From a virus, in the IMG/VR virus record IMGVR_UViG_3300010413_002950, positions 26,088 through 90,087 of that record: DNA of 64,000 bases; one strand, written 5' to 3'. Below are positions 1-64,000 of this stretch, in pieces. Position numbers and translations under genes: made by a program. Below the pieces are notes generated by a model that worked only from the letters and a program-made list of their open reading frames with translations, was not told the origin of the DNA and did not search any database. How positions within the stretch are numbered: the first letter of the stretch is position 1; every line of letters starts with the position of its first letter.

Positions 1-1113
1 TCGCTTACGGTAAATAGCTACAGCTTCATCTTCGGCTATTCCAATCTGTCTGCTATAAGCTACAGCTCTTTTAGGTATCTGCCTATTTCTGTAGCCTTCT
101 TTCACAAGATGAAGAAAATACTGATTCTCATTCTCAAATTCTTTAGGGATATGGACATTAGGCAATAGGCATTTTAGCGGATCAATTTCTATTTTAGCTT
201 CACATCTATCAGCAAATTCTATGGTGTTATTCAGAGAGTCAATTATGTATTTCTTGTCTATGCCATGGCTATTAAAGCTTTCCTTCATTTCCTTTCGTGT
301 TTTATACCAATAGCTATCTCCCTCAAACTTGAAGCGATCTTCATCACTAAGCTTTGATTGCGTATTCATAGCTAGCATGACTTCGTGAAACCGGATATCA
401 TCTTCGGAGCAATAATGAGAATCTTGTGTAGCTATTAACTTATTTCCATACTTTTTATGAATTCTAACTATTTCATTATTTGTAAATATTTGCCTTTCAA
501 ACTCATGTGGCATGATCTCAAGATATAGCCGATCGCCAAATATGCCACATAACCTGTCTAGAAGACTCTCTGTTCTAAGTATTTGCTTATTATGTATTGC
601 ATCATTAAGAATTGAGCCGATACAGCCAGAGCCTAATAGAATTCCGCTATTGTATTTCTCTAGCAAATCTAGATCGATCCGTGGCTTATAGTAATAGCCT
701 TCATCCCAGCCTATGCTACTTAGCCTATAGAGATTTCTTAGACCTTCATTATTCATAGCCCATGCTGTTATGTGGTATCGCTTATTTACTCCTAGCTTTT
801 CTTCTAGCTCTTTTCTTGCTTTCTTTTGTTCTGCTTTTCCATCTATTCCAGCTATGTCTAATTTTTCTTCTTCTGTTAATCCTTTTCTACTTATATCATC
901 ACAAATGTAAAATTCAATGCCATGTAGCGCCTTGATACCGGACTTATTGCATTCTTCTTGAAGCTTGTAGCTACCTCGCATAGTGCCATGATCGGTAATA
1001 GCTACAGCTCGATAGCCTCTTTCAGCTGCAGCTGTAACATAAGCTTCAACCGTAGCACAACCATCAAGTTGTGAGTAGTCGCTGTGACAATGAAGATGTA
1101 CTAAATCTTGCAT
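1..1113 (-). CDS. dnaE: DNA polymerase III alpha subunit, N-terminal PHP domain (runs off the left edge)
   Basis: Not in ORF track. Manual translation from ATG at 1113 gives MQDLVHLHCHSDYSQLDG...AVAITDHGTMRG...GIKALHGIEFY, the PHP motifs of family C polymerases. Confidence 0.95.
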   Translation of the reverse strand, partial: MQDLVHLHCHSDYSQLDGCATVEAYVTAAAERGYRAVAITDHGTMRGSYKLQEECNKSGIKALHGIEFYICDDISRKGLTEEEKLDIAGIDGKAEQKKARKELEEKLGVNKRYHITAWAMNNEGLRNLYRLSSIGWDEGYYYKPRIDLDLLEKYNSGILLGSGCIGSILNDAIHNKQILRTESLLDRLCGIFGDRLYLEIMPHEFERQIFTNNEIVRIHKKYGNKLIATQDSHYCSEDDIRFHEVMLAMNTQSKLSDEDRFKFEGDSYWYKTRKEMKESFNSHGIDKKYIIDSLNNTIEFADRCEAKIEIDPLKCLLPNVHIPKEFENENQYFLHLVKEGYRNRQIPKRAVAYSRQIGIAEDEAVAIYRKR

Positions 1114-1119
1114 TAGCTA

Positions 1120-1416
1120 TCAGCCGCGAGCTATAAATCTTTTTTGGCAATACAAACAATTTTCATCAGTGCATTCATCATACATGTTCAAAGCAGGAGG
1201 GCAATTATCAAGTACAATTGCATACGCTCTTTTCAAACAGGCTATAAGCTTGGAATTTTGTGAACGCAATTGTTCAATCTCATCACACTGTTTACGGATC
1301 TTTTTTATTGCAAGTGCAGTACCTTCAGTCTTCATATGTATTACCCTTTGTGCTGCCATACATCCTTCACAGTCTGGATTTAGCTCTGCTACTCTTACTA
1401 CGGGCGCATTAGTCAT
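1120..1416 (-). CDS. hypothetical protein (Cys-rich)
   Basis: ORF tightly packed in the operon. Confidence 0.6.
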   Translation of the reverse strand: MTNAPVVRVAELNPDCEGCMAAQRVIHMKTEGTALAIKKIRKQCDEIEQLRSQNSKLIACLKRAYAIVLDNCPPALNMYDECTDENCLYCQKRFIARG

Positions 1417-1423
1417 TTTTTAT

Positions 1424-2116
1424 CTACCTCTCAGGAATCTGCAAAATTCCCTGCTTAGCTAAAGCTGATAGCAACTCAACCAATATAGCTACTTCTTCAA
1501 AGCCACAGCGTAAAACCTTAGATCTAAATTGGCCTTCGTGAAATTTTCTGATATCTAGCTTATTGAAATCAGCTTCTTTCAAAATATCCTTTACCATTCT
1601 TCTTGATACCGGCAATTCGGCTGTTAGCTTAGCAAGATTTGTTTTGAAGTGCAATGAGATAAGGGCAAGATCCTTAACTCTATTGGTTTTACAGTACCAG
1701 CTGATATATCCAGTAGTTCTTAACTTATCTACAGAATAGATTGTTCCAGCCTTTATTACTATCAACTTCTTCTCACCAGTAGCAATCTTGTTTACCACTC
1801 TTCTTGGAAATGCCTGAGATAACAGCTTTTCAAAATGTTCGTACAAATGCCATAATTCATCAGGATAATCTACTCTAGCACCTTTCTTACCCCTTCTTCT
1901 AATTGCTGGCTTCTTCAGAAATGGTACTATCAATTCTTCAACTTCTTCAAGACTCATATCCTGAATTATATCATCTACATCAACAGAATTAGCTTTGCAG
2001 TATTTCTTTAGAGCTTTACAGCCATTTCTCCAGCCACAAGGTTTTTCTTTAGCTTGACCGTCACAGCTCGGATCACCTAGCTCATATCTACCAGCACATT
2101 CAGATAGTTTGGTCAT
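1424..2116 (-). CDS. hypothetical protein with N-terminal Cys cluster
   Basis: 230-aa ORF, GAGAGG-type SD context in operon, overlaps upstream gene. Confidence 0.75.
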   Translation of the reverse strand: MTKLSECAGRYELGDPSCDGQAKEKPCGWRNGCKALKKYCKANSVDVDDIIQDMSLEEVEELIVPFLKKPAIRRRGKKGARVDYPDELWHLYEHFEKLLSQAFPRRVVNKIATGEKKLIVIKAGTIYSVDKLRTTGYISWYCKTNRVKDLALISLHFKTNLAKLTAELPVSRRMVKDILKEADFNKLDIRKFHEGQFRSKVLRCGFEEVAILVELLSALAKQGILQIPER

Positions 2117-2426
2117 GCTTAATTCTCTTAGCTAATATACCAATATAATCACAGATATCTAAGCACTTATTAATTTCTTCTACTGGAAACCCATTTGGTA
2201 AAATCAGTAATTCTTGATCTGCAGCTACATCTTGAAGGCCAAATTTAGAATACAGTTTTACCATATTTGAAAAGTACTTTTCTACTTTTTCTGGTTCTCC
2301 GTGCTTTATCAAAACAGAATGTTTAGCATCATAGCAAAATGCAACTTGCTCATATAAAGCTACAATCTCATTTAGATCTTCATCAAATAAGTTATACTTT
2401 CCATCTTCATATTTATAATGATACAT
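2100..2426 (-). CDS. hypothetical protein
   Basis: ORF 2100..2480; likely start ATG 2426 (MYHYKY). Confidence 0.7.
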   Translation of the reverse strand: MYHYKYEDGKYNLFDEDLNEIVALYEQVAFCYDAKHSVLIKHGEPEKVEKYFSNMVKLYSKFGLQDVAADQELLILPNGFPVEEINKCLDICDYIGILAKRIKHDQTI

Positions 2427-2449
2427 TATTCTACCCAGCAATCTCTCAT

Positions 2450-2935
2450 CTAACCATCTCCCAAAAATTCCCACAAACAATTCTCAATTAATAATCTACT
2501 ATTCTCATGCAATATTAGCTTATCTTTATTGGCCCTATACCAGCTAACCGGCTCACTAAATCCTTGAGCCCTACCAGCTCCAGCCCAATCGCAAACCATC
2601 TCAAGACAATACTTAAATGGTATCTCCATACACTTCAATTCGCCATTATCTTTTGGCTGTATCCAATATTGCCAATGATGTTTATTGCATTTCTGATGCC
2701 AGAACCAAGCTTTAGCAAATTCTTCATTGGCAGTTGGATCATAATAGCCTGTTTTGTCTCTCACAACTTCTTTAGAGCCATAGAATCTTTCGACATATGG
2801 AAACCACTCACGAGGCAAAAACTTGCTCATATCATGAGATATTCCTTGCCAATACAGCCCATGCTTCCAGCATTCAACAAGTACATACCATTTATGCCTA
2901 AGAACATAGCTCAAATATTTTAGGTGTTTATTCAT
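2450..2935 (-). CDS. DUF5662-like / HD-type putative phosphohydrolase
   Basis: RHKWYV...HDMSKF...HQKCNKHHWQYW...EMVCDW pattern. Confidence 0.7.
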   Translation of the reverse strand: MNKHLKYLSYVLRHKWYVLVECWKHGLYWQGISHDMSKFLPREWFPYVERFYGSKEVVRDKTGYYDPTANEEFAKAWFWHQKCNKHHWQYWIQPKDNGELKCMEIPFKYCLEMVCDWAGAGRAQGFSEPVSWYRANKDKLILHENSRLLIENCLWEFLGDG

Positions 2936-11015: not shown

Positions 11016-11330
11016 TTACAAGTTAATGAACCTATTAAAGCCACTTAGTAAACACCTATACTGTAATTTTACAATACTAGGCTGATATGGCTTTTCAAAT
11101 TCTATATCTATATAGCCCTTTCTTTTAAGCTCTTTCAATACATCATATAACCCCCTATAGGTATAACCTAGATCTTCGGCTAATTTGCTCATACCTCTAG
11201 CTAATTCCTTATCAGAATAGAGGTGTAGCCGGATCCAAACAGCAAAAGCTGAAGATTTTAGCTCCTTATAGGCTACCTCTATAGTCTTGTGATTGCTTTT
11301 AGGGCTGTATTTATATTTTACTCTAAGCAT
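11016..11330 (-). CDS. winged HTH DNA-binding protein
   Basis: MSKLAEDLGYTYRGLYDVLKELKRKGYI helix-turn-helix pattern. Confidence 0.75.
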   Translation of the reverse strand: MLRVKYKYSPKSNHKTIEVAYKELKSSAFAVWIRLHLYSDKELARGMSKLAEDLGYTYRGLYDVLKELKRKGYIDIEFEKPYQPSIVKLQYRCLLSGFNRFINL

Positions 11331-13665
11331 AATTATCCAGTATTTCTATATCGAATTCTTTCTCAGATCGATAAACTGATAGTCTATCTCTAGAGTGCTG
11401 AGCAAAATATTTATGTGTCATATCTGCAAAATCAACAAACACTGCATCTTTTTTACCTTTACAAAGTGTAAGACATCGTAGCCTCTGGTACGTGGTTTTT
11501 ATGTTTTTGCCACCTTCTGCGTTGATCACACAATCAATTTCTGGGATATCTACGCCCTCAGATAAAACAGTGCCGATAAGCGCAGAGATATGGCCTTTTC
11601 TAAAGCTCTCTATAATCTCTGCTCTTTTAGGTGCTGGGGTAGCTCCAACAATTCGCTCACAGGAAATAGACGAATTCATCATTTTAAAAAGCGTATCTAC
11701 TTGCTCCAACCTATTGGATACAATTACCACTTTTCTATTTTCAGTCTTGATTAACTTTTCCGTTATATCTGCAATTATCCTATTGCGAATTGGATTGCCC
11801 CAGATAGCAGCTTTAGGCAATTGCTGACTCCACCATTCATCAGATAGATCTGGCTCTCTAATTGGTATGATTAGAAATTTAGGCTTTACAAGATACCCGA
11901 GCTGAATTAGCTCGCTAACTGAAATATCTATAAGGATATCCCCAGCGCAAGCTCTAAGCCAAATAACCCCCAATTCTTCTTCATTAGAATTTTCCAGAAA
12001 TACTGTAGCAGAAAGGCCGATTTTGTAAGGAGCTGGACAGTCAAGAAGGATATTTCTCCATGCATCTCCAGAACTAAAATGATGGCAATTATGAACCAGT
12101 ATTTTATTTGCAAAATATGTATGTGTGTTTTCTACTTCTAAATTATAGACATAACCGTCTGGACACAATTGTTTAAATTTGTCAGAACTTCTTGATTTGA
12201 GAATCTCAACACTTTCCACCCTTGACCAATTAAGAAATTGTCTTTCCTTCGATCCGCAGCTTTTACCCTTAAAGTATTGTGACTTGAACCGTCTACCTCT
12301 ATCGCAATTTTTAATATTGGGTTCGCAATGTCTATCTTGTAATGACTCGGTAATCCACCCTTTACACCACATTTCGTTGGAAGAATAAATTCCATTTCCC
12401 ACCCAAGTGTTGTTGCCAATAGTAGTTGGGGCAGCGTTGGCCCTCTCCCATTTCCACCTTGAATTGGCGGCTTCCATCCATTTATTCTGTGTATTGTAGA
12501 AACCTTTGCTCGTATTTCTGGTCTTTTCATTGGATTGTTTTTTTTCATTCTTTCTGATGCATATTTCTTGTTTGTTTTTGCCATTGTTTCTGAAGAACGT
12601 TTGCTTCGATATGCTTTTGAACATTCTTTTGAACAATAGGCGTGACCATATCTTCTTAATTGATCTAATTTGCATCCACTTACAAATATTTCTTTTTTGC
12701 ACCAAAAACAATTTGTTTTTATTTCTTTTTTCATATGTGGTGTATAGCACCATATCACTGGTTGTCAAATCAATAGCGTTTTTCCAACCTGTTTGTGTAA
12801 AAATTGGATGTGTTGGTGTACAGGTTAGAACTTTATTATCTGTTTTGATTATTACCAATTGTTTGCATTTATTGCGAAAGATGTTGATTACCTTTTGTTT
12901 TTCTATTTTTTTTGTGTTTTCATTATAAGATGTTACATATTCACCAACCTTAATTGATTCTATTGGCCTTTCATCAATTATTGTTCCAGCTGGAAAACAT
13001 TCATCAACAAGCATAAGATCAACATTGTTTATAACATTGTGATATTCTGGCGTATTGCGTTTTGCTAATAGCGTCTGAGCTGTAGAAACGGTTATATCAG
13101 ATGGTTCCCATACTCCATCACCCAATATACCTATTTCTATTTCTAGGGCCTTAGACAATGCTTTCTGGCTTTGGTAGAGTAGCAATTGAGAAGGTACGAT
13201 GAATAGCGTTCTAACCCCTAGCTTTGCAACAATGGCAGAAGCAACCAACGTCTTCCCCCCTCTGGGCGGGATCTTGATAATTCCCCTACCAACAGACTTG
13301 CTATACCCATACGGCTCAGTAGCTAATTCTAGAGCTTCTTGCTGATAAGGCCGTAAGCCAGTAACTTGCTTCAATTCTAGTGTACGTTTAGGATAAACTC
13401 GTAGATCCGTCAATTGCCATTCAGCTCCATTTTTTTCTATTATGCTAATAATGTTTTCAGCTAATCCAGCTGGAGATTTGAATAGTTTTTCAGATTTGCT
13501 ATAGGTAATGAGATACTTCTTTCCATCCCATCTACCTTCTTGATAAGCTGTTGTATGCTGATAGCCACTTACATAATAGCTGGTTTTTTCTCGCATTTGC
13601 CCAAATATAGGACCAGGAACATTTCGGATATAAACATAATTGTTGTCTAGCGTTATAGATATCAT
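11323..13665 (-). CDS. superfamily 2 (UvsW/XPB-like) DNA helicase, intein-containing
   Basis: LRPYQ, Walker A PPRGGKT, DE|CHH motif II split by the intein, GLSAT, LSEGVDIP, QRLR. Confidence 0.93.
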   Translation of the reverse strand: MISITLDNNYVYIRNVPGPIFGQMREKTSYYVSGYQHTTAYQEGRWDGKKYLITYSKSEKLFKSPAGLAENIISIIEKNGAEWQLTDLRVYPKRTLELKQVTGLRPYQQEALELATEPYGYSKSVGRGIIKIPPRGGKTLVASAIVAKLGVRTLFIVPSQLLLYQSQKALSKALEIEIGILGDGVWEPSDITVSTAQTLLAKRNTPEYHNVINNVDLMLVDECFPAGTIIDERPIESIKVGEYVTSYNENTKKIEKQKVINIFRNKCKQLVIIKTDNKVLTCTPTHPIFTQTGWKNAIDLTTSDMVLYTTYEKRNKNKLFLVQKRNICKWMQIRSIKKIWSRLLFKRMFKSISKQTFFRNNGKNKQEICIRKNEKKQSNEKTRNTSKGFYNTQNKWMEAANSRWKWERANAAPTTIGNNTWVGNGIYSSNEMWCKGWITESLQDRHCEPNIKNCDRGRRFKSQYFKGKSCGSKERQFLNWSRVESVEILKSRSSDKFKQLCPDGYVYNLEVENTHTYFANKILVHNCHHFSSGDAWRNILLDCPAPYKIGLSATVFLENSNEEELGVIWLRACAGDILIDISVSELIQLGYLVKPKFLIIPIREPDLSDEWWSQQLPKAAIWGNPIRNRIIADITEKLIKTENRKVVIVSNRLEQVDTLFKMMNSSISCERIVGATPAPKRAEIIESFRKGHISALIGTVLSEGVDIPEIDCVINAEGGKNIKTTYQRLRCLTLCKGKKDAVFVDFADMTHKYFAQHSRDRLSVYRSEKEFDIEILDNYA
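12138..12734 (-). CDS. Vsr/DUF559-type PD-(D/E)xK endonuclease nested in the +1 frame inside the intein
   Basis: CFWC...YCSKEC zinc motif, NUMOD3-like basic segment (KKNNPMKRPEIRAKVS), YKIDIA...AIEVDGSSH...DRRKDNFL...GWKVLRF catalytic domain. Confidence 0.88.
   Translation of the reverse strand: MKKEIKTNCFWCKKEIFVSGCKLDQLRRYGHAYCSKECSKAYRSKRSSETMAKTNKKYASERMKKNNPMKRPEIRAKVSTIHRINGWKPPIQGGNGRGPTLPQLLLATTLGWEMEFILPTKCGVKGGLPSHYKIDIANPILKIAIEVDGSSHNTLRVKAADRRKDNFLIGQGWKVLRFSNQEVLTNLNNCVQTVMSII
12741..12768 (-). promoter_or_regulatory. putative internal promoter for the nested endonuclease
   Basis: TTGACA-N16(ending TGC)-TATACA, 6 nt upstream of ATG 12734; same geometry as the early promoter family. 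Confidence 0.6.
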
Positions 13666-17166: not shown

Positions 17167-17706
17167 TTATTTCGTAATCTCCACGACTGATACAGTTGGA
17201 TTTTTGGATATCACATTAGGCATGTCAACCCCGCCTATCGTGCCCTCTATTGACGGCTCGGCGCTCGTTACGGTTAGGTCACCTAGTACCCATGGTGTTG
17301 CTACAGACGGCAACTTTGCCGGTACAGTGCCCACAGCAAAAGTGTATACCAGATCGGTAAACGGTTTTGGTTGGCCTGATGTCGGATCTAGTCGAGTCCC
17401 AGATAGCCGATACGTGAGACACGCTGTTCCAAGATCCGATAGCTTTACCCCTGCATTAGTTGGATCAAGTTCTGCCAGCTTCGCGTCTTCAGAGCATACT
17501 AGATATCGGCCGTCAGCAAGCTGTTTGCAAAATGCCACCACTTGATTCGGGCCTCGCATCCATTTGGTGTTTACGCCGGGCACAAAGTCTCCGTATGCTG
17601 TGATATAACCATCTGCTTTCTCAACATCTAACGCGCCGGGTATCACAGGCACAGTCTGCCCAGCCTGATTTGATGTTTCCGGTAGTGTGAGTATCTTGTA
17701 GTTCAT
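17167..17706 (-). CDS. hypothetical protein, possible fibre chaperone; higher GC
   Basis: TGATG coupling to the fibre gene; start ATG 17706. Confidence 0.65.
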   Translation of the reverse strand: MNYKILTLPETSNQAGQTVPVIPGALDVEKADGYITAYGDFVPGVNTKWMRGPNQVVAFCKQLADGRYLVCSEDAKLAELDPTNAGVKLSDLGTACLTYRLSGTRLDPTSGQPKPFTDLVYTFAVGTVPAKLPSVATPWVLGDLTVTSAEPSIEGTIGGVDMPNVISKNPTVSVVEITK

Positions 17707-19205
17707 CAGTACGGCTCGCTTCCCAATCCTCCCCATTGCTGAGTATTGGATTCTGTTTGCAAATGATATACATTGCCGGCGCTAGTTGACCATGCTGTCC
17801 CTGTGGTTGTTCCATTACCCGTTGTAAAACCAGACAGTATCACCTGGCCTGCCGATGGCTTTAATTGCACAGTAACCTTTTGTCCTCGTGATGCCGTAAC
17901 AGCACCGGTGGTTACCAGATTGGATACACCGGTTTCATCGTCAACATATATCTTACCATCACTTGCCTTAAGATACACATGGATATTAGGGCTTGCGCCA
18001 GATTCATCAAACTCGATTATTGTCCCGTCACCTCCACTCATCCCAGCTGCAATAGCGCGATTGCATATTAGATCTATTTTGATATCCCTTCGCAATGCAC
18101 TTGGAACATCAGCAGATGCCCAGTATAGTTGATCGGCATTACGGGTAACAGATGATGACGATGGAGTGTGAATCGGAGATGATGGATATGTGCCAATTTC
18201 CAGCTGTGGATTCCATACATACAACCCTGATGTACCGTTCCCTTGATACGATAATGTGTTATCCGCGCTGCACATGTAAAGCCCAAAAGTCGTGGTTGCT
18301 GCCGCATTGGACGCCTTAGAGTGATAGATCCTATACCAACCATTACCTGCTGACTCTATACCATACGCCAAAGGAGTTCCTGATACAGTGCCTACAGCTC
18401 CCGTGGATGTATTAAAATTGGTTATAACATTAACTCCGAATCCTTCAGAGGTATACACAAGAGCCATCCAAATTCGTTCTTTTGGTTTTATGTATGCGCT
18501 AAAACAATACCGCGAACTACCATCTGGAGTGTATGCATGAGTTATACGGTGGTTGCCATTGTTTCCGTTTTCAATTATAGTGTCCGCCGTTACTGTCCCA
18601 TCTGGAGCCATGATACTATTTACCCCAAACGAACCAATACCCACTTGGGATTTTTGATCCGTTTGCTGTGAGTACGTCCAGTAGTTTGTTCTTGAGATCT
18701 CGATCTGAGCGAACAATCTCCCACTAATACGCCGTGTAGCCAACACGCCACCGGCGAATGCTTCAATACTCGGCCATTTGTTATTATACCCAAGATAGCG
18801 CGGGGACGTGTTCGTGAAGCTTGCGTCGGCAAAGCGGACTATCGGCTTAGAGATAAGCGATCTATCAAATCTTGTTGCTAAACTCATATATAAATTACCA
18901 GCTGTTGCAACAGTATGATCAAACTTAATCATATAGTATTTATTTGGCGAATCTATTTCCTGCTCTGCTATACCTGGAGTACCAGCTGGATTTGTATCAA
19001 AAGTGATATTAGTTTCAAAAAAGCCAATTCCCATTCCTCCAAAATCATCATTACTTGCCCAAACTTCAAAATCCCCAGCTAAATTGCCAGTCCACTTATA
19101 AACTACGCTAATTTTGTTAGCTCTGGTAGCATCAATAATAACACTTTCACGATCTCCACTTACGTTTTTTTCGTTGAAGATATAGCCGTCTGTTTGTCCG
19201 TACAT
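17706..19205 (-). CDS. fibre/spike protein
   Basis: Gly/Thr/Ser-rich beta-strand domain with GNGWYRI, QLEIG..PSSPI.T....TRNAD motifs seen in phage fibre proteins. Confidence 0.75.
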   Translation of the reverse strand: MYGQTDGYIFNEKNVSGDRESVIIDATRANKISVVYKWTGNLAGDFEVWASNDDFGGMGIGFFETNITFDTNPAGTPGIAEQEIDSPNKYYMIKFDHTVATAGNLYMSLATRFDRSLISKPIVRFADASFTNTSPRYLGYNNKWPSIEAFAGGVLATRRISGRLFAQIEISRTNYWTYSQQTDQKSQVGIGSFGVNSIMAPDGTVTADTIIENGNNGNHRITHAYTPDGSSRYCFSAYIKPKERIWMALVYTSEGFGVNVITNFNTSTGAVGTVSGTPLAYGIESAGNGWYRIYHSKASNAAATTTFGLYMCSADNTLSYQGNGTSGLYVWNPQLEIGTYPSSPIHTPSSSSVTRNADQLYWASADVPSALRRDIKIDLICNRAIAAGMSGGDGTIIEFDESGASPNIHVYLKASDGKIYVDDETGVSNLVTTGAVTASRGQKVTVQLKPSAGQVILSGFTTGNGTTTGTAWSTSAGNVYHLQTESNTQQWGGLGSEPY

Positions 19206-19214: not shown

Positions 19215-21539
19215 CTACTCTGTAGGATAAATTTCTGATACATTACCATTTAGGTAAGTTGCTAAATTGTAATCGTATTCATGACCCAAGAATAAAGTCA
19301 TCAATGGTGTAAAATATTGCTTCCAAGATCCTACCAATGATGAAGCTCCGCCAGTAGTAGCTCCTTCAACTTCAATTGTTCCATCTATTGGATTTAAGTT
19401 GATGATTTTAGCTGAAGATTGAGGAAATGTTATAGCTGTGGTATTAGCTAATAGATCAGTGCCATTTCTTTTAACACATACATATTTATTAGTATAATCC
19501 CATAATACAGTAATTCTTTCTGAAACTGATAAATATAGATCGTAAATAATAGAATCATCTGTAAGAATATCGTCTGTTCCCCAATGTGGAGCCCAAATAA
19601 TAGAATGTTTTTTTGAAGCTATTACAGAAGAATAATTTCCAGGTAGCCAATAACATTTGCTCTCTCTTCTTTCCATAGAAGTAGAAACATTAGACATCGG
19701 AGATGTTAGAAATGTAGCTTCATTAGCTCCATATCCTTCTTGTAAGCTAGATAGCCAAAAATATAATGCACTAGTTCCATCACTAGCAAATGTTTCAGAG
19801 GTGTCGCTACTAGCTCCAAAGTAAAACGGAACTTCTGTATCTGTGGTGTTGCAAAGTCCAGTAATAGCTATATGAAACCAGTCTTTTTGTAATCGCCTTA
19901 TTGTATTTTTAGTATTTGTGGCTATTACTACTTCATCTTCCAAATCAAATCTAGCATAAGCTGCTCCAGCTGATTCAGTACCATCAAAATGAGAAGCTGG
20001 AAGAAATAGATTTACATATCTAGATCCATCATTTCTTACACAAATACTAAGATTATAGTATTTACCAGAAGTAACAGAATTAGCATTACGGTATAGCTGA
20101 TGTAACGAATTATCAGTACTTGGTGTAAATTTTTCAGCAGTATTTGAACCAAAGTATGTAGTAGGATCCTGAATAGCATTAGATGTTATAACATCGTTTG
20201 TTTGTGTTTTAAGATATAGGTTGATGTTTTCGCTAAATTCTGCATAATCGGTTATTCTACTTTCTATAGCTACACAAATTCTGTTTAGTATTCTGCGTAG
20301 TGGCTTTTCATCTGTATCATAATTGCCACCCCATATTCCACCAGAACCAATTGAGAATCTGTCATTTGTACTAGCATTTTCATAATTCATGTCTATGAAA
20401 TTAGCATATGGTTCAGACATATAGTTTGGATACATTGTTTCAACTTCGCTACATTCTAAGTACGAATTAATTAAATTGAATGCTGGGTATCCAGTTTCTA
20501 ATGAAGTGGATTTACTTATAGCTGTATATTCCAAATTGCCATCTATGTAGATTTTTAAAATTACAGATCCTTCAAAGTGTGACAAATCAAATCTTAGACC
20601 GTACCAAATTCCTTCATAAAAATTAAACGTAAATGACCCAATTAATCCATCAAATGAATAAACGTTTACATTTCCACTAAAATCATATGATATTGCATAT
20701 CCAGATAAAAACGGATATGCGTATTTTCCATACGGACTAATTGTAGCCGTATCAGATCCACCATTACTCCAAAATCTAACCCTAAAATAGGTTACTTGGT
20801 TAATCCAATTGGTTTCTAATTCTGTAGTCCATGCAAATTCAACCGTAGAAAGAGAATCTCCAACTTTTAAAACGCTATCTTCTACTGTTAAATTATAAGT
20901 TATTGGATCTTGCCATTGAGTAAGATCTCCCTCTATTAAAAATTGATCAAGAAATTTCAAATAGGTTATTTCTATGGTTTCATTAACTGCCCTCATTAAT
21001 TCTATAATTCCTTCAAGAGCAATTTTTGATTCAGGTTCAACAACTCGAAGATTAGAAACGTTTTCAGCTCCAGAAATATCAGGATCTGGTAATTCTATCA
21101 ACCATGGATCTAGACCTTGATGATCCTCTCCAAATTGTGTTTCATCTAATACCCATCGAAAATCAAACCAATTCCATATCCTATTTCTAGAATTGAATGC
21201 AAAGTAAATAATATCATTTATAGTATCTTCTGGTCCCTTATTTTTCCAAAGATTAACAGATACGGATATTAACCTTCTAAGAGAATCGTAATCTAATTCG
21301 TTCGTTATGTAGTCAAGTTCAGGTGTCCAACCAACTATGTTTTTCAGATATTGTAATATTCTGTCTGGACATTCAGTTATTGACCAAATTGTCGGAATAG
21401 ATTGAAGTATTTCTGAATTAATTTCCCATATTGTCTGTGGACCCACAAGATATCTTTCTAAAAATTGATATCCTTCTTGCTGATCTAGCTTCCTAATTTC
21501 TTCTATAAGAAAATTGTATATTTGTGTAGGTACAGTCAT
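19215..21539 (-). CDS. baseplate wedge (P2 gpI-like) fused to fibre-like domains
   Basis: LQYLKNIVGW...RRLI..SV.LWKNKG N-terminus; follows the J-like gene. Confidence 0.75.
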   Translation of the reverse strand: MTVPTQIYNFLIEEIRKLDQQEGYQFLERYLVGPQTIWEINSEILQSIPTIWSITECPDRILQYLKNIVGWTPELDYITNELDYDSLRRLISVSVNLWKNKGPEDTINDIIYFAFNSRNRIWNWFDFRWVLDETQFGEDHQGLDPWLIELPDPDISGAENVSNLRVVEPESKIALEGIIELMRAVNETIEITYLKFLDQFLIEGDLTQWQDPITYNLTVEDSVLKVGDSLSTVEFAWTTELETNWINQVTYFRVRFWSNGGSDTATISPYGKYAYPFLSGYAISYDFSGNVNVYSFDGLIGSFTFNFYEGIWYGLRFDLSHFEGSVILKIYIDGNLEYTAISKSTSLETGYPAFNLINSYLECSEVETMYPNYMSEPYANFIDMNYENASTNDRFSIGSGGIWGGNYDTDEKPLRRILNRICVAIESRITDYAEFSENINLYLKTQTNDVITSNAIQDPTTYFGSNTAEKFTPSTDNSLHQLYRNANSVTSGKYYNLSICVRNDGSRYVNLFLPASHFDGTESAGAAYARFDLEDEVVIATNTKNTIRRLQKDWFHIAITGLCNTTDTEVPFYFGASSDTSETFASDGTSALYFWLSSLQEGYGANEATFLTSPMSNVSTSMERRESKCYWLPGNYSSVIASKKHSIIWAPHWGTDDILTDDSIIYDLYLSVSERITVLWDYTNKYVCVKRNGTDLLANTTAITFPQSSAKIINLNPIDGTIEVEGATTGGASSLVGSWKQYFTPLMTLFLGHEYDYNLATYLNGNVSEIYPTE

Positions 21540-21540
21540 A

Positions 21541-23724
21541 TTAACCAGCGGTAATAATTATATTTCCAGCTAATGGCAATTGTCTAGTTTCTAGTATTAA
21601 ATCGGATGCAACACCATTAATAAGTAAATTTTCAACATTAACGATATTAGAATCTGTAAGATGTATTTTATGTGTCATATCTGATAAATAGATAGTATCT
21701 CCAAATTCCCACTCAAATGTTACTCCATCTTCGGTTTTAGCTTCTGGGTTTAATAATGCCGTTAGCGCATCTTCTACAGCATCAACACTGGTTGCACCAT
21801 ATACTGTGGCTGATATGTTGACAGTTTTTGGCTCATAATTTGTGGCTACCACTTCCTGATTTGCCACTAGCCTTTTAGGGGCTGGAGGTAAAGCATATTT
21901 GTCACCATTGAAATACAATTCTAGAGCTTCTAATTGCTCTGTAGATGCTGGACTACCACCCGAAGCTACAACTATTATCTCTGTTGTTTTTGGACCAAAT
22001 GCCCCTTCATTAGCAAAAGCTCTAGCGAAAATTCTAGAACCTGTAATTGGATCTATATATGCTTCGGTAAGTGTTTCTATATCTCCTGGACCTAAAGCTA
22101 CAGAGCTTACTCTTAAAGAAGCTGGACCAAGAATTTTAGCCAATTCAAGGCTTTCTTCACTAGCACTTTGTGATTCTTGCCAACCAAAAGATGGCCTTGG
22201 ATTCCACAGTGAAGCTATATTGATAAGACCAGATTTGTCAACTGTTATAGAATTTTCACCAACTGTTCCATTTATATCCACACCATATCTATATGTTGCA
22301 GCTATTGTTTGTCCACTACCAGGAATCAATCCTCTAATTCCATCTCCAAATTTAATAACCCCTCTATCATTTTCTCCAAGCTTGAACGTATAGTGCAACG
22401 ATGTAGCGGTACTTTGAAGAAAGTTATCAACCTTTTGCCACACAATACTATTAACTGTTACTGTTTCAGAATTATCTATTACTCCTTCTCTAACTGTTTG
22501 AAATTCTTGATTAGCGGTTCCATCTGAAATTCCTAAGGATGATTCCTGTTGTAATTTACCTTGAATAGCTAAAGCTTTAACATATTGATCTCCAATATCT
22601 ATTCGCAATTGATCTATAATAGGAGCTGTAGGTGTACTTACAGAAATAATTCTGTAGCGTAACCAATAATTATTTTCATTATTTACTTCGCCTTTAACCC
22701 ATTCTAGTGTCAAATTCTCTGGTAGTATATAGTCTACATCTCCAGCTGCAGCTAAATTGATAGCAGTTCCAGAAACGGATAACTCTTTCCAATTTCTACC
22801 AGCTGTATAATGCTCTGGGTTATTATCCCAATCGCTAACTTGTTGACCTAGCAAGGTAGATGTAGTGATATAGTTTTTATTACCGCTTCCATAATCAGCC
22901 CATTCAGAAACTATATTTTCTTCTGCAGATCCAGTTTGATCTAGCTGAATTCTAACTAGTGTTCCAGATCTATCGCTAGTACCTAATAAATTATTAATCT
23001 CAAATCGCAATGTAGATCCAACTATAGCTACAGAATTTGGATGATCATCGAGAACATTACCATCATAGAATTCCCAGATACCTGTTAATCCAGATCCAAC
23101 TGTATCAAAAGCCACATTTAGCTTATTCCACAAAATGCCACTATGTCCTATATACAAACAATCCCTAGCTGCAGGACTAGCCCATGGTGTAAAGTCATCT
23201 CCAGGAGCGCTATTAGCTTTGGCTGTATAATCTGTGTAAGTATCTAAGCTATAGTCATAGGCAAATACTTTGGTTATATCACCTTCGCTACTTGCAGCTA
23301 CAGTAAGAGCTTCTAAAACCTCAAATGTAATTACTTCTCCTGTAACTTGAGATCTAGTAGCAACCTGAGCATATTGGTTAATAACTTGGGTAGCTACAGT
23401 TAATGGTTGTGTAAGCTTAAAAACAATATCAACTTTAGCTGGAGAAGCAGAAGCTAATTCATAATCTATAAGCCTAAGCATATTGCGAATAGTTTCAGCA
23501 AGTCTAGCTGTAGGTAACGTGTTCTCATTGGCTAGCATATCAGCATTAGTATTATTGAGGTGACCAACCAAAGCAAAAGCTCTAAGCAATTGAATTAATG
23601 GCTCATGTACAGATTCATCTGTTAATTCTGGTACATTGATACGCTTAAATTGAATTAACTGCTCTAATATTTGAGGATAATAAAAGGCAGACCAATCAAA
23701 ACTAGGAATTTCAATATTTGCCAT
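21541..23724 (-). CDS. baseplate J / T4 gp6-like wedge protein
   Basis: LPTARL, IKFGDGIRGLIP, ATYRYG motifs; likely start 23724. Confidence 0.85.
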   Translation of the reverse strand: MANIEIPSFDWSAFYYPQILEQLIQFKRINVPELTDESVHEPLIQLLRAFALVGHLNNTNADMLANENTLPTARLAETIRNMLRLIDYELASASPAKVDIVFKLTQPLTVATQVINQYAQVATRSQVTGEVITFEVLEALTVAASSEGDITKVFAYDYSLDTYTDYTAKANSAPGDDFTPWASPAARDCLYIGHSGILWNKLNVAFDTVGSGLTGIWEFYDGNVLDDHPNSVAIVGSTLRFEINNLLGTSDRSGTLVRIQLDQTGSAEENIVSEWADYGSGNKNYITTSTLLGQQVSDWDNNPEHYTAGRNWKELSVSGTAINLAAAGDVDYILPENLTLEWVKGEVNNENNYWLRYRIISVSTPTAPIIDQLRIDIGDQYVKALAIQGKLQQESSLGISDGTANQEFQTVREGVIDNSETVTVNSIVWQKVDNFLQSTATSLHYTFKLGENDRGVIKFGDGIRGLIPGSGQTIAATYRYGVDINGTVGENSITVDKSGLINIASLWNPRPSFGWQESQSASEESLELAKILGPASLRVSSVALGPGDIETLTEAYIDPITGSRIFARAFANEGAFGPKTTEIIVVASGGSPASTEQLEALELYFNGDKYALPPAPKRLVANQEVVATNYEPKTVNISATVYGATSVDAVEDALTALLNPEAKTEDGVTFEWEFGDTIYLSDMTHKIHLTDSNIVNVENLLINGVASDLILETRQLPLAGNIIITAG

Positions 23725-43718: not shown

Positions 43719-44915
43719 TTATGTTACATTGATGTTGTATGCTTTTACAAGTGCGTCGGTTTCTTCAACCTGACAGGAAATTTTCATATGCATGACATAC
43801 TCATTTCCACGCTTGTAAATATCACGTTGCTTTTCCATGGTCATATCCCGACCGATACCAACAAGGTAGTTTTCCATATGGGTCAGAATAATCTGTGGAT
43901 ATGCCTTATAGGTAATTTTCACAGTTGCACCATCACCAATCACGCCACCACCATTACGAGCAATAGTACCATTGGTGTAGTTCATATCATAGTCTGAACC
44001 TTCAACATATGGTGTGGTTGGTGTAGTACCAAGAGTGCTAGGGGTAACAACCTCAGAAGCAGAAACAATTGGCTTATACCTAAGAGCAACAGCAGTGGTT
44101 CCAGGAAGTGCCACATGCTCAACAACTGTAGGATTGAACTCCATCAAAGGAACTTCCACAATGGGAATACCAAAAGGAGTCTGCATTTCGCCTTCTGCAG
44201 CTCTGACGCCCTTCATGTCTTCACGTGCTGAAATCTTCTCAACATACAATTGAGCTAGATTTGGAGCCATGAAGAATCGAAGTGATCTCTTATTCCTACG
44301 GAATTTAGTTGGCATAGAGTTGATCATATCACTAAAAACCGTCAACGAAATATCAGCTCCAGCTACATTTAGGGTGTGACCTGCATCGGCAAGCCGTAGC
44401 CAACCCTGATATAGGGAAAGCAAAGGATCCTTTACGTATTGCGATGTAGATCCACCTTCCCATAGATCGCTCTCAAGGCCAGCTTCACCAAGAATGTCGC
44501 CACGTAGGCATAGATGCTCAAGATCATTAGCTGCTTGCTTAGCAAACATACGCATAATGTGATCTTCGCCTTTTGCACCCTCAATACTCAGCTCCAGAAA
44601 AGAGTCAGAGATTTCCCAAGGCAGAATAACTTCCTTTGGATTAAGGCTGATCTTGGAAGTGGTAACGCCACGCCGATTACTAGGAGCAACCATCTCTGTA
44701 GCCGGTTGCATAACACGTGCACCAATACCGATCTTATCAATATCAAACTGCTCATTCCTGAATTTAACAATTCTAGCATTGTTCTTCAAAAATGATTCAT
44801 CAACTACATAGTCGATCAACGTATCAGCTTGCCTTGGGTTGAACTTACCGTATGAAGCCAACGCATCAGCGGCCGTGATAGCAGACTTGATTATCTCATC
44901 ATTAGTCATTCCCAT
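43719..44915 (-). CDS. major capsid protein (HK97 fold)
   Basis: GKFNPRQAD.LIDYVVDES, IDKIGIGAR, FAKQAANDLE.L...GD; strong AGGAGG SD. Confidence 0.92.
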   Translation of the reverse strand: MGMTNDEIIKSAITAADALASYGKFNPRQADTLIDYVVDESFLKNNARIVKFRNEQFDIDKIGIGARVMQPATEMVAPSNRRGVTTSKISLNPKEVILPWEISDSFLELSIEGAKGEDHIMRMFAKQAANDLEHLCLRGDILGEAGLESDLWEGGSTSQYVKDPLLSLYQGWLRLADAGHTLNVAGADISLTVFSDMINSMPTKFRRNKRSLRFFMAPNLAQLYVEKISAREDMKGVRAAEGEMQTPFGIPIVEVPLMEFNPTVVEHVALPGTTAVALRYKPIVSASEVVTPSTLGTTPTTPYVEGSDYDMNYTNGTIARNGGGVIGDGATVKITYKAYPQIILTHMENYLVGIGRDMTMEKQRDIYKRGNEYVMHMKISCQVEETDALVKAYNINVT

Positions 44916-55130: not shown

Positions 55131-55333
55131 TTGTTTCCTTTCAAGATCCTAACCCTATGCTCATAGCCATAGCCACCAGGAGCTTTTTTGAATTCGGCAA
55201 AAGCTATGGTAAATTTATCTGTACAGCGATTGCCACATTGTTCTGCAGATACAGAGCACACTGGGCAATCTAGTAAGTTATCTCCAGCTTCTTGGTATTT
55301 GCGAAATAGCTTTTGAAATTCGGTTTCTGTCAT
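55127..55333 (-). CDS. hypothetical protein (Cys motif)
   Basis: Coupled ORF. Confidence 0.6.
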   Translation of the reverse strand: MTETEFQKLFRKYQEAGDNLLDCPVCSVSAEQCGNRCTDKFTIAFAEFKKAPGGYGYEHRVRILKGNK

Positions 55334-56115
55334 TTTTCACACTCCACCCAAAAATCGGTTACTCGCCATTTGGTTATAGCTTTATGACAGTCTATGTCTC
55401 TAAACCATACTGCAATTATGGTTACGTCTTTATATTCATAGCCATTTTTCTTAAGCCAAAACTTTACATGTTCGATTGTTGGTTTAACATGTAAGCCAGG
55501 ATGACAATCGGTATATGGACACGTACTAAAAACTGGAGCTGTATACAAATTGCCAGAGCTATATCCACTGCTTTTTACGACAGGACTATGAGCTGTACGA
55601 TAACCCTTACACCATACTTGCCCTGAACGGGTAGTAATTTTCTCAAAGTCGTTAGCATTTGCATTAGGCAAATTTGTTAGATCTAACACAGTATTTGCCA
55701 AATCGGCTCCTTGCAAATTGGCTCCTTGCAAATCGGCTTCTCGCAAATTGGCATATCGCAAATTGGCATCTTGCAAATCGGCTCCTTGCAAATCGGCATA
55801 TCGCAAATTGGCTCCTTGCAAATCGGCATATCGCAAATCGGCTCCTCGCAAATTGGCATCTTGCAAATTGGCATATCGCAAATCGGCATATCGCAAATCG
55901 GCATCTTGCAAATCGGCATATCGCAAATCGGCTCCTCGCAAATCGGCTCCTTGCAAATCGGCATCTTGCAAATCGGCATATCGCAAATCGGCTTCTCGCA
56001 AATCGGCTCCTTGCAAATCGGCTCCTCGAAAATCGGCATATCGCAAATCGGCTCCTTGCAAATCGGCTCCTTGCAAATCGGCAAATGGTTTTATTTCATG
56101 TCCGTTTCTTTTCAT
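55330..56115 (-). CDS. pentapeptide repeat protein 1
   Basis: A(D/N)L(Q/R)X repeats; distinct C-terminal domain (CHPGLH). Confidence 0.92.
   Translation of the reverse strand: MKRNGHEIKPFADLQGADLQGADLRYADFRGADLQGADLREADLRYADLQDADLQGADLRGADLRYADLQDADLRYADLRYANLQDANLRGADLRYADLQGANLRYADLQGADLQDANLRYANLREADLQGANLQGADLANTVLDLTNLPNANANDFEKITTRSGQVWCKGYRTAHSPVVKSSGYSSGNLYTAPVFSTCPYTDCHPGLHVKPTIEHVKFWLKKNGYEYKDVTIIAVWFRDIDCHKAITKWRVTDFWVECEK
55696..56084. repeat. 15-bp coding tandem repeat (pentapeptide array)
   Basis: GCAAAT(C/T)GGC-N5 units. Confidence 0.9.
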
Positions 56116-56136
56116 CTTGTTTCCTTTCAACGGTTT

Positions 56137-60286: not shown

Positions 60287-60297
60287 TTTATTTTCTC

Positions 60298-60743: not shown

Positions 60744-60771
60744 ATTGTAGCACTATCTAGCTACTATGCAA
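60744..60771 (-). promoter_or_regulatory. early promoter, family A
   Basis: TTGCAT-N16(TGC)-TACAAT. Confidence 0.75.
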
Positions 60772-60823
60772 GAACTAATTGCGATTAGATATAGAATTTT
60801 TTGCTCTAGCTTGTAGCTATAAC

Positions 60824-61406: not shown

Positions 61407-61434
61407 ATAGTAGCACTCTTTAGCTACAGTGCAA
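61407..61434 (-). promoter_or_regulatory. early promoter, family A
   Basis: TTGCAC-N16(TGC)-TACTAT. Confidence 0.7.
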
Positions 61435-61461
61435 GGAGAAAGAGATAATTTATAAAAAAAA

Positions 61462-62152: not shown

Positions 62153-62833
62153 CTACTTCTTTGGGTATGGCTTACATGCTCTAGCTGCAGCCATCACTAC
62201 TGGCTTCCATTGTGTCCACCATGCTAATGCTCTTCGATCCATTTGATTAATTTCTTCATCTGTAAACTTCTTCCACTCTTTGGCTGTATGATACTCGCAG
62301 CCCATCCTGATATTGTCCCTTTGTATATGAGCTATTGACCATATACATTGCATCACAAAATCAGTTTCAGGCAAATTAGCTCCTCGCAAATCGGCTCCTC
62401 GCAAATTAGCTCTATACAAATTAGCTCCTTGCAAATTAGCTCCTCGCAAATTAGCTCCTCGCAAATTAGCTCCTCGCAAATCGGCTCCATACAAATCGGC
62501 TCCATACAAATCGGCTCCTTGCAAATTAGCTCCTCGCAAATCGGCTCCTTGCAAATTAGCTCCATACAAATTGGCTCCATACAAATTGGCTTCTCGCAAA
62601 TTAGCTCCTCGCAAATTAGCTCCATACAAATTGGCTTCTCGCAAATTAGCTCCTCGCAAATTAGCTCCATACAAATCGGCTCCATACAAATCGGCTTCTC
62701 GCAAATTAGCTTCTTGTAAATCAGCTTCTTGTAAATCGGCTTTTTGCAAATTGGCTTTATGCAAATTGGCTTTATGCAAATTGGCTTTTTGCAAATTGGC
62801 AAATGGTTTTATTTTGTATCCATTAACTTCCAT
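62153..62833 (-). CDS. pentapeptide repeat protein 2
   Basis: A(D/N)LXX repeats; C-terminal IRMGCEYH...W..F...I..MD..ALAWW domain. Confidence 0.92.
   Translation of the reverse strand: MEVNGYKIKPFANLQKANLHKANLHKANLQKADLQEADLQEANLREADLYGADLYGANLRGANLREANLYGANLRGANLREANLYGANLYGANLQGADLRGANLQGADLYGADLYGADLRGANLRGANLRGANLQGANLYRANLRGADLRGANLPETDFVMQCIWSIAHIQRDNIRMGCEYHTAKEWKKFTDEEINQMDRRALAWWTQWKPVVMAAARACKPYPKK
62371..62804. repeat. 15-bp coding tandem repeat (pentapeptide array)
   Basis: CAAAT(T/C)(A/G)GCT-N5 units. Confidence 0.9.
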
Positions 62834-62850
62834 CTTACTTTCCTTTCTGG

Positions 62851-63006
62851 CTATTTGCAAAGCTTTACACCCCTAAGATCTGCTTTCACAAGGGGTCCAT
62901 CATACAATATAGACCTAAGTCTTGCTTCTGCTTCTGCATTTTGTCTTTTAGCTCTTTTCACATCAGCTAAAACAAATCTGGCTATTTCAAGAGTGTTATA
63001 TTTCAT
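62851..63006 (-). CDS. 51-aa hypothetical protein
   Basis: Manual translation MKYNTLEIARFVLADVKRAK...; AAAGGA SD after a family B promoter. Confidence 0.55.
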   Translation of the reverse strand: MKYNTLEIARFVLADVKRAKRQNAEAEARLRSILYDGPLVKADLRGVKLCK

Positions 63007-63026
63007 GTTTTTTCCTTTCGTTGCCT

Positions 63027-63055
63027 ATTATGCTATAGTTGTCTGCTGTAGGCAA
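63027..63055 (-). promoter_or_regulatory. early promoter, family B
   Basis: TTGCCT-N17-CATAAT within a ~46-bp repeat also found at 63759-63804. Confidence 0.7.
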
Positions 63056-63065
63056 ATGCTAAATT

Positions 63066-63305
63066 CTAGCAATAACCCCAATCCTTTAGCCATTGCTTCC
63101 AAGGGTGATTTACACCTTCATCTAGATCTCTTTCAAGTAATTTGGCTTGTTGCTCTCCATCTTCAATTATTACTATACGCTGATTTGCTGTATTAAGTGT
63201 ACATGTGGCAGCTACCCGACAAGTATGAGCCCTAATTAGATCTGCAGCTTGAAAACGATTTTTGGCTTTTTTAATTCTATCTCTGTACCCAATTTTGTTC
63301 TTCAT
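63066..63305 (-). CDS. hypothetical protein
   Basis: Coupled ORF. Confidence 0.6.
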   Translation of the reverse strand: MKNKIGYRDRIKKAKNRFQAADLIRAHTCRVAATCTLNTANQRIVIIEDGEQQAKLLERDLDEGVNHPWKQWLKDWGYC

Positions 63306-63508
63306 TTACTTTCCTTTCTATAGGTATTAGCATATTTGCAAATGATTCCCCACTTGTCATTAGCAATTTGATCCATCACCCATTTTTCTTCCATGACCAA
63401 TTCATAGATTTCCTTAGATAATTTGACATTATCTTCTATTTTGTAAGCAACATGAAATAGCTCATGCAACAATTTGTTTAATTTTTGCCTTCTTTCAAGT
63501 GGTGTCAT
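63302..63508 (-). CDS. hypothetical protein
   Basis: AAGGGA SD before ATG 63508. Confidence 0.6.
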   Translation of the reverse strand: MTPLERRQKLNKLLHELFHVAYKIEDNVKLSKEIYELVMEEKWVMDQIANDKWGIICKYANTYRKESK

Positions 63509-63543
63509 TGTCTTTCCCTTTGTTGTCGCTCTTGCCATACTTT

Positions 63544-63571
63544 ATAGTAGCACAATCTAGCTACTATGCAA
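63544..63571 (-). promoter_or_regulatory. early promoter, family A
   Basis: TTGCAT-N16(TGC)-TACTAT. Confidence 0.75.
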
Positions 63572-63606
63572 GGGCCAATTTGATCTTTTTACTATTCAGG
63601 CTACAG

Positions 63607-63753
63607 CTACCTGGCTAATACCCAAGGGATCCAGATAGGAGATAATACCCACCACCAGGACCAATCAATAACATCGACTAGCTTCAGCGTAATAAACACT
63701 ATAGCTAGCGCTCCAGCTAACCCTATACCGCCACTTGAATTGTTGTTACTCAT
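63607..63753 (-). CDS. small membrane protein (LKL..VIDWSWWWVLSPIWI family)
   Basis: Characteristic motif of a widespread small phage membrane protein. Confidence 0.75.
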   Translation of the reverse strand: MSNNNSSGGIGLAGALAIVFITLKLVDVIDWSWWWVLSPIWIPWVLAR

Positions 63754-63775
63754 TGTTCTTTTCCTTTCGTTGTCT

Positions 63776-63804
63776 ATTATGCTATAGTTGTCTGCTGTAG
63801 GCAA
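63776..63804 (-). promoter_or_regulatory. early promoter, family B
   Basis: TTGCCT-N17-CATAAT. Confidence 0.7.
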
Positions 63805-63808
63805 CTGG

Positions 63809-64000
63809 TTAATCAATTAAATACCTTAACTCAGAAAGAAGAGAATCTAGTGTTTTATGGCTCTTTACTCTTTTGCTCCATAGATCTTCATCTGTTCTAA
63901 TTTTCTCAAGAGTGTAAATTGCGGATTTCAGACCTTCTTCGAGCCTAGCTGTTCTTGTCTTTAGCTCATAGTACTTATCTTCCCATTTGATTTTATCCAT
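63809..64000 (-). CDS. hypothetical coiled-coil protein (at window edge)
   Basis: ORF track; start may lie outside the window. Confidence 0.5.
   Translation of the reverse strand: MDKIKWEDKYYELKTRTARLEEGLKSAIYTLEKIRTDEDLWSKRVKSHKTLDSLLSELRYLID

What the first reader, a model, noticed from the sequence alone, without database searches (positions are those of the whole stretch)
1..64000. Strong window-wide over-representation of the palindrome AGCT (often TAGCTA)
Seen by hand count: about 10 AGCT in nt 1-600 and about 16 in the 1431 nt of helicase exteins. Rough expectation from base composition is about 1 per 300 nt. Same-composition palindromes ACGT, GTAC and TCGA are nearly absent from nt 1-600. 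The motif occurs in all codon phases (e.g. GAG CTG AAG CTA; xxA GCT; AGC Txx) and in promoter spacers, so amino-acid usage alone does not explain it. Related AGCC/GGCT and GATC also look common. Established: phages usually avoid short palindromes, while HIP1 in cyanobacteria is a precedent for an enriched palindrome linked to methylation. Inference: AGCT (or RGCY) may be the target of a phage or host DNA modification, a methyl-directed repair bias, or a genome-coating protein. No modification enzyme is visible in this window.
Basis: partly seen in the sequence, partly recalled or inferred. Interest (0 to 1): 0.75.

Follow-up and report, generated by a model that had tools for sequence, protein, structure and literature searches.

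The report
AGCT-rich DNA signature of a phage
One uncultured phage species writes the four-letter palindrome AGCT about three and a half times more often than chance, a real DNA-level habit that its nearest relatives lack and whose cause is not yet known.

Summary
The window is bases 26088-90087 of a 90,087-bp myovirus contig. It holds 744 AGCT against 212 expected from base composition and 415 +/- 18 in dinucleotide-preserving shuffles. AGCT is the top-ranked of all 256 four-letter words. Shuffling synonymous codons within genes gives 615 +/- 19 against 1007 observed (z = 21). The excess is present in all three phases and in strictly non-coding DNA (15 against 4.1).

It is lineage-specific. 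Two other contigs of the same species show it. 78 related phage loci, including the closest relative at the same G+C, do not (0.13-1.81). Mobile or imported parts lack it: the intein and the fibre cassette. Individual sites turn over at the ordinary rate. The phage has no cytosine methyltransferase.

About half of the effect is a dinucleotide and half-site signature: GpC high, CpG and ApC/GpT low. Some low-G+C Clostridia share that signature (AGCT 1.9-2.4x, sometimes their top word). A palindrome-specific extra (odds ratio 1.5) remains.

My best reading is a mutation, repair or context bias of this lineage and its unidentified host, not an array of functional sites. A methylation-linked process is not excluded. 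The scan has noted other palindrome excesses on other DNA, but my one word look-up there returned none for AGCT.

The parts
1..64000 (.). Window-wide AGCT excess: 744 copies, 3.5x base composition, the top four-letter word
   Evidence: the whole contig has 1056 copies
12088..12999 (-). Helicase intein without the excess (2 AGCT, 2.6 expected). It contains the longest AGCT-free gap of the contig (12258-12988, 730 nt).
11323..13665 (-). Intein-bearing helicase gene. The exteins carry 16 AGCT in 1431 nt (4.9 expected).
17167..19205 (-). G+C-richer fibre cassette with normal CpG (0.94-0.95) and nearly no excess (11 AGCT against 7.7)
19914..21913 (-). Second low-AGCT island, covering the distal part of the 774-aa tail/baseplate protein (o/e 1.1-1.6)
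43719..44915 (-). Major capsid gene with a weak excess (8 AGCT, 1.8x; 5.2 in codon shuffles)
55330..56130 (-). Pentapeptide-repeat gene with CpG 1.24 and AGCT at only 1.4x
62153..62860 (-). Second pentapeptide-repeat gene, the AGCT-densest gene (16 copies, 6.8x). It is a likely contributor to the 15-nt spacing peak; this was not checked.
63544..63577 (-). Promoter-like repeat with AGCT in its spacer. Similar copies lie at 61407-61440 and 60744-60777.
   Evidence: The promoter reading is by eye; it was not tested.
12138..12758 (-). ORF nested out of frame in the intein, with a DUF559 / REase_MTES_1575 endonuclease domain

Best explanation
The AGCT excess is the most visible part of a DNA-level, context-dependent substitution signature. 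That signature has written itself into the resident genes of this one phage species. It is not an array of individually functional sites.

The signature favours GpC and the steps AG/CT. It disfavours CpG and ApC/GpT. At every place where synonymous choice allows, A-G-C-T and A-A-T-T are chosen and A-A-C-T and A-G-T-T are avoided.

Shown: the bias acts in all phases and in non-coding DNA. It is absent from sister phages and from imported segments. Sites turn over freely while density stays constant.

Inferred: the driver is a mutation or repair bias of the replication and repair setting in which this lineage lives. One example would be preferential resolution of T:G mispairs to C:G after AG. 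The setting is probably that of its host, possibly a low-G+C Firmicute. An extra palindrome-specific push of about 1.5-fold is still unexplained.
For: The bias is not due to protein sequence or codon usage. Synonymous shuffling gives z = 20.9 and codon-order shuffling z = 22.8. AGCT is the top word of 256 under that null.

It is present in non-coding DNA at 3.7x.

It is a usage shift and not a protein shift. AGCT is written at 44% (212 of 483), 44% (676 of 1533) and 24% (115 of 473) of the places the proteins allow. In the same module of the 7 relatives with 36-38% G+C the figures are 0-14%, and sites allowed per kb are similar.

Lys/Glu/Gln-Leu pairs are written xAG-CTN (89% CTN after a G-ending codon) or xAA-TTR (23% CTN after an A-ending codon).

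It is lineage-specific. L086 and L087, at about 94% and 88% DNA identity, score 3.17 and 2.86. 78 other capsid-clade loci score 0.13-1.81. The closest relative L166 (capsid 69% identical, 36% G+C) scores 0.77 with a flat dinucleotide signature.

None of 226 comparison loci of at least 10 kb reaches the phage's 3.43; the maximum is 2.58.

The pattern looks like amelioration. The intein has 2 against 2.6, the fibre cassette is 1.4x with normal CpG, and low-AGCT islands sit in exchangeable tail parts.

There is no site-level selection. 58.7% of AGCT sites are kept at 13% divergence against 61.5% for all four-letter words (rank 50 of 148). Unambiguous gains and losses are 17 and 16.

The same kind of signature exists in bacteria. 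In the tool's genus set that holds the 'Clostridiales' MAG of L025, AGCT is 0.87-2.36x (median 1.59, 51 loci). It is the top word in 4 single loci (L311, L320, L321, L332) and in the pooled 70 kb of G215. That set shows the same G|C, A|C and G|T junction biases and the same xAG-CTN coupling: 0.81-0.94 against 0.29-0.60. Junction-odds correlation with the phage is 0.58-0.70, against -0.40 to 0.13 for four of the phage's low-G+C relatives (L166, L145, L156, L160) and 0.54 for the intermediate relative L130.
Against: The host is not identified and no direct link to that bacterial group exists. 0 of 101 family genomes hold a capsid relative. A 20-kb piece of the phage gave only chance-level hits in 10 of 82 genus genomes.

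No sampled bacterium reaches the phage's level.

The palindrome-specific odds ratio is 1.52 (CI 1.35-1.71) in the phage but 1.06 (0.91-1.24) in pooled G215 and 1.02-1.36 in the others. So part of the effect is not covered by the shared signature.

A Rickettsiales MAG locus correlates as well on junction odds (0.80) without the Leu coupling. Signature similarity is therefore weak evidence of host.

Mutation bias and weak genome-wide selection on density cannot be told apart with these data.

The 'strict non-coding' sample is only 1248 nt. It may include some of the three copies of the promoter-like repeat seen; I did not check which of them remain in it.
Confidence: 0.5

Rival explanations
1. 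A methylation-linked repair ratchet specific for AGCT, a small-scale analogue of the cyanobacterial highly iterated palindromes. A host (or phage) enzyme methylates AGCT. A repair activity that reads the methylated site or its T:G deamination product then converts near-misses into AGCT.
For: The word is a palindrome with a GC core, the type that Elhai's model needs (passages of PMC4390886). There is palindrome-specific synergy: odds ratio 1.52 in G000 and 1.39 in L087. The inner-transition neighbours AGTT and AACT are depleted to 0.79 and 0.78. AGCTnnAGCT clusters at 50 against 10.7 +/- 2.8. The phage shows classical restriction avoidance of other palindromes but not of AGCT.
Against: The contig holds no C5, N4/N6 or D12 methyltransferase family. 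The highest-order Markov ratio is only 1.12-1.15. Depletion of AGTT/AACT is no stronger than that of several unrelated GT/AC words. Among 33 unambiguous gains and losses only 6 involve AGTT or AACT. Host methylation is unknown.
Confidence: 0.2
2. A phage-intrinsic cause. The phage's own replication and nucleotide-metabolism set makes modified DNA. That set comprises DnaE, RecA, a family-4 UDG, dCMP deaminase, a ThyA-like enzyme, Tmk, Cmk, a SpeD-like decarboxylase, MT-A70 and an HU-like protein. The modification might be a 5-substituted uracil or m6A. AGCT density is then either the by-product of the altered mutation spectrum or is selected as the context that gets modified or bound.
For: The module lies just outside the window. 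MT-A70 keeps its DPPW motif. The ThyA-like enzyme is very divergent; its nearest solved relative is CMP 5-hydroxymethylase at E = 1.7e-4. The excess is specific to this phage species.
Against: There is no evidence of any modification. The ThyA-like enzyme has Asn, not Asp, at the position aligned to the Asp of the CMP hydroxymethylase (the meaning of that residue is recalled), so it may be a plain thymidylate synthase. An MT-A70-family match was found in 1 of 9 relatives' records searched (G214), whose 21-kb locus L114 has an AGCT ratio of 1.21; the other 8 lack it. Sites are not conserved. Whether L166 has the same module is unknown, because its record is not held.
Confidence: 0.12
3. Translational codon-pair selection. 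The excess reflects preferred codon junctions in the host's translation system (nnGCnn preferred, nnGGnn avoided).
For: Every four-letter word spans a codon junction. The G|C junction odds are 1.94 and A|G-G is strongly avoided. nnGCnn is the commonest preferred codon-pair type across 138 organisms (passages of PMC2585594).
Against: The same 3.7x excess is present in non-coding DNA. The highly expressed capsid gene has one of the weakest excesses. Sister phages lack it.
Confidence: 0.08

Closest known systems
HIP1 (GCGATCGC) and alternate highly iterated palindromes of cyanobacteria (Elhai 2015, PMC4390886; passages read)
   Same: A palindrome with a GC core is enriched genome-wide, independent of frame and in spacers. 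It varies between lineages. A proposed origin is methylation-linked biased repair.
   Different: Here the word has only 4 letters and the excess is 3.5x (1.1-1.7x over context models) rather than very large. No cognate methyltransferase was found. Sites are not preferentially conserved. The carrier is a phage of unknown host. The contig has 1 HIP1 copy.
Genome signature (dinucleotide relative abundance) and amelioration of foreign DNA (Karlin; Lawrence and Ochman; recalled, not read here)
   Same: A pervasive, lineage-specific bias in short words. It is weaker in recently acquired segments, and viruses tend to share it with their hosts.
   Different: One palindromic four-letter word stands out as the top word. 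It exceeds the dinucleotide prediction by 1.7-1.8x and exceeds every comparator sampled.
Very-short-patch repair bias in E. coli (Dcm/Vsr; recalled, not read here)
   Same: Repair of T:G toward C:G in one sequence context enriches the product word and depletes its T-containing neighbours.
   Different: The context would be AG(C/T)T. No Dcm-like or Vsr-family (PF03852) gene was sought or shown. The only Vsr-fold-like domain (DUF559) sits in an intein-nested ORF and is most simply a homing endonuclease.
Elimination of AGCT from pandoravirus genomes (Poirot et al., bioRxiv 10.1101/712018; abstract read)
   Same: The same four-letter word is singled out by an unexplained, lineage-specific process in a virus.
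   Different: The sign is opposite (total loss there, excess here), and the host is eukaryotic.
Universal codon-pair preference nnGCnn and avoidance of nnGGnn (Tats et al. 2008, PMC2585594; passages read)
   Same: The G|C junction preference and A|GG avoidance contribute to xAG|CTx and xxA|GCT.
   Different: The excess is also present outside genes, and it is absent from sister phages with the same proteins.

Membership tests
Highly iterated palindrome (HIP-type) | The word is many-fold above the expectation from its own sub-words | tested here: not met
   The highest-order Markov ratio is 1.15 in the window and 1.12 in the contig. The odds ratio of the two half-sites is 1.52.
Highly iterated palindrome (HIP-type) | The excess is independent of reading frame and present in non-coding DNA | tested here: met
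   Phase z-scores are 6.2, 13.7 and 15.7. Non-coding DNA has 15 against 4.1.
Highly iterated palindrome (HIP-type) | A methyltransferase specific for the word is present in the genome | tested here: inconclusive
   PF00145, PF01555 and PF02086 are absent from the contig. One MT-A70 enzyme of unknown specificity is present. The host is unknown.
Highly iterated palindrome (HIP-type) | Sites are maintained by selection (conserved between strains); this feature is recalled from Xu, Lawrence and Durand 2018, which I did not read | tested here: not met
   58.7% of sites are kept against 61.5% for all four-letter words, rank 50 of 148.
Host-type genome signature with amelioration | The bias is pervasive over resident genes | tested here: met
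   57 of 62 genes of at least 450 nt have an o/e of at least 1.7.
Host-type genome signature with amelioration | The bias is weak in recently acquired DNA | tested here: met
   Intein 0.77x, fibre cassette 1.4x, with normal CpG in the cassette.
Host-type genome signature with amelioration | The bias matches the signature of the host | tested here: inconclusive
   The host is unknown. The nearest sampled group is a Clostridia genus set (delta* 46-82 for its best loci, AGCT up to 2.36x). No prophage or spacer link was found.
VSP-like context-specific T:G repair bias | The product word is enriched and the T-substituted neighbours are depleted | tested here: inconclusive
   AGCT is 1.63, AGTT 0.79 and AACT 0.78. 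Other GT/AC words are equally depleted.
VSP-like context-specific T:G repair bias | A cognate m5C methyltransferase and mismatch endonuclease are present | not testable with these tools
   The host is unknown. The phage has no C5 methyltransferase.
Restriction-site avoidance | Palindromes are far below context expectation | tested here: met
   This holds for other words, not for AGCT. GAGCTC is 0 (16-21 expected), GCATGC 0 (8-12), TTCGAA 0 (8-9), TGGCCA 1 (15-23), GGTACC 0 (6-7.5) and AGGCCT 0 (6-8.5).

The most novel reading that the evidence does not exclude
An AGCT-specific, methylation- or modification-linked conversion process works in this phage lineage. It would be a four-letter counterpart of the cyanobacterial iterated palindromes, and the first seen in a virus with on/off sister lineages: this species against L166. 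It would drive near-miss words to AGCT on top of the host-type signature. It might be tied to the phage's own MT-A70 enzyme or to its unusual pyrimidine-metabolism module.
Probability: 0.17. Interest if true: 0.75.

Novelty: new member of a known kind. Interest (0 to 1): 0.42.

Why it matters
Phages normally purge short palindromes, and this one does so for at least six six-letter sites. Yet it carries AGCT as its commonest word relative to composition, at a level not met in any of 226 comparison loci.

The bias is present in one species and absent from a sister lineage of the same G+C. It is also absent from an intein and an imported fibre cassette inside the same genome. That makes it a clean natural system. 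It can be used to ask what writes short-word signatures into DNA: mutation spectrum, biased repair, methylation or modified bases. It can also serve as a clock for how recently a segment arrived.

If the cause is only the host's signature, the practical value is a host clue and a marker of foreign DNA.

Tried and rejected
Amino-acid and codon usage as the cause: rejected.

A clade-wide phage trait: rejected.

RGCY as the unit: rejected, because GGCC is not enriched. The unit is AGCT, with AGCY/RGCT weaker.

A longer motif: YAGCTR forms are about twice as enriched as RAGCTY. The six-letter words are explained by their five-letter sub-words, with TAGCTA at a Markov ratio of 0.95.

Regular spacing, as expected for a coat protein: the data show only codon periodicity, a 15-nt peak that I suspect but did not check comes from the pentapeptide-repeat genes, and an AGCTnnAGCT excess.

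Hyper-abundant GAGCTC, CTCGAG or CGATCG in some high-G+C relatives: explained by their lower-order composition.

Host identification:
- RecA is 59-68% identical to many phyla.
- Cmk is 39-45% identical to the listed cellular-type homologues.
- There are no tRNAs.
- No capsid relative was found in genome contigs with alignment A2. With A1, 11 loci were found, including a Myxococcota prophage-like locus.
- Low-G+C Bdellovibrionota were sampled: 20 loci of 20 kb, AGCT 0.72-1.77, never the top word (strand-pooled maximum 1.75).
- A Clostridia genus set was sampled: nearest signature, but no direct link.
- No terminal repeat and no host genes at the contig ends.

Literature: searches found no report of AGCT over-representation in a phage or bacterium. 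Across 200 genomes the mean AGCT ratio is 1.13 with variance 0.13 (Table 1 of PMC3077040, passage read).

Polarised gains and losses: of 39 apparent gains, 22 are ambiguous by parsimony. The unambiguous counts are 17 gains and 16 losses, so no trend can be claimed.

Supplementary files of papers were not consulted.


Full report
What the DNA is. The window is bases 26088-90087 of a single 90,087-bp contig. The contig has 37% G+C, and almost all genes lie on the minus strand. It is a tailed phage. It encodes terminase, portal, a capsid with 28-36% identity to capsids of cultured phages, tail sheath, tape measure and baseplate. Replication genes include DnaE, DnaB, a primase and an intein-bearing helicase. 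It has no close cultured relative; megablast against 50,697 phage records found nothing. IMG/VR classes it as a provirus, about 90% complete. I saw no terminal repeat and no host genes at its ends.

Noticed in passing
whole contig; window 1-64000: Classical restriction-type avoidance of six-letter palindromes beside the AGCT excess. GAGCTC is 0 (16-21 expected) although it contains AGCT. GCATGC is 0, TTCGAA 0, TGGCCA 1, GGTACC 0 and AGGCCT 0. GAGCTC is also 0 in the two sister-strain loci. CTGCAG is enriched (39 in genes against 20.4 in codon shuffles).
   Followed up: partly
L001:4211-18382 and L002:807-8843 (contig bases about 4200-26800, upstream of the window): A dense nucleotide and DNA-metabolism module: Tmk, divergent ThyA-like enzyme (nearest solved relative CMP 5-hydroxymethylase), MT-A70 with DPPW, SpeD-like decarboxylase, family-4 UDG, SbcCD-like pair, Cmk, dCMP deaminase, bacterial-type RecA, SLOG and HAD-like proteins, DnaE. 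It could support a modified base; this is not shown.
   Followed up: partly
L002:4374-4676 (-): A 100-aa HU/IHF-family DNA-binding protein (PF00216, E = 7e-6) encoded by the phage. From memory, phage SPO1 pairs such a protein with hydroxymethyluracil DNA.
   Followed up: no
window 12138-12758 (-): An ORF nested out of frame inside the helicase intein carries a DUF559 / REase_MTES_1575 endonuclease domain (E = 3e-12). It is likely the intein's homing nuclease, encoded in another frame.
   Followed up: partly
window 62153-62860 and 55330-56130 (-): Two pentapeptide-repeat proteins (E = 6e-58 and 7e-55). One is the AGCT-densest gene. The other has foreign-looking composition (CpG 1.24).
   Followed up: no
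window 63544-63577, 61407-61440, 60744-60777 (-): A repeated promoter-like motif, TTGCA - spacer containing tAGCTa - TGCTAcnAT, upstream of early-region genes.
   Followed up: no
whole contig: AGCTnnAGCT occurs 50 times in genes against 10.7 +/- 2.8 in codon shuffles. That is more than the squared single-site excess predicts. The 10-nt palindrome AGCTGCAGCT occurs 7 times against 0.4.
   Followed up: partly
L231 (a Myxococcota MAG, 2.0-Mb contig, around 1.07-1.09 Mb) and L230: Capsid-clade relatives (53-54% identical) lie inside Myxococcota assemblies, one within a 2-Mb contig. Part of this phage clade therefore seems to be temperate in Myxococcota.
   Followed up: no
L130 (IMGVR_UViG_3300009034_000037) and L093 (IMGVR_UViG_3300009506_000022): Two clade members of 42-43% G+C show a milder AGCT excess (1.68x, rank 3; and 1.38x) and intermediate use of allowed sites. 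They may be independent partial cases.
   Followed up: partly
whole contig: Unusual codon usage for a bacterial virus: ATA is 42% of Ile, AGA+AGG 73% of Arg, CTA 24% of Leu and GCT 59% of Ala. AGC is the only C-ending two-fold codon that outnumbers its T-ending partner. No tRNA genes are present.
   Followed up: partly
contig record: IMG/VR classes the record as a provirus. An identical Cmk protein is recorded on a contig of 94,997 bp, about 4.9 kb longer than this record. That contig may be the parent, and its extra flank might name the host. I could not fetch it.
   Followed up: no
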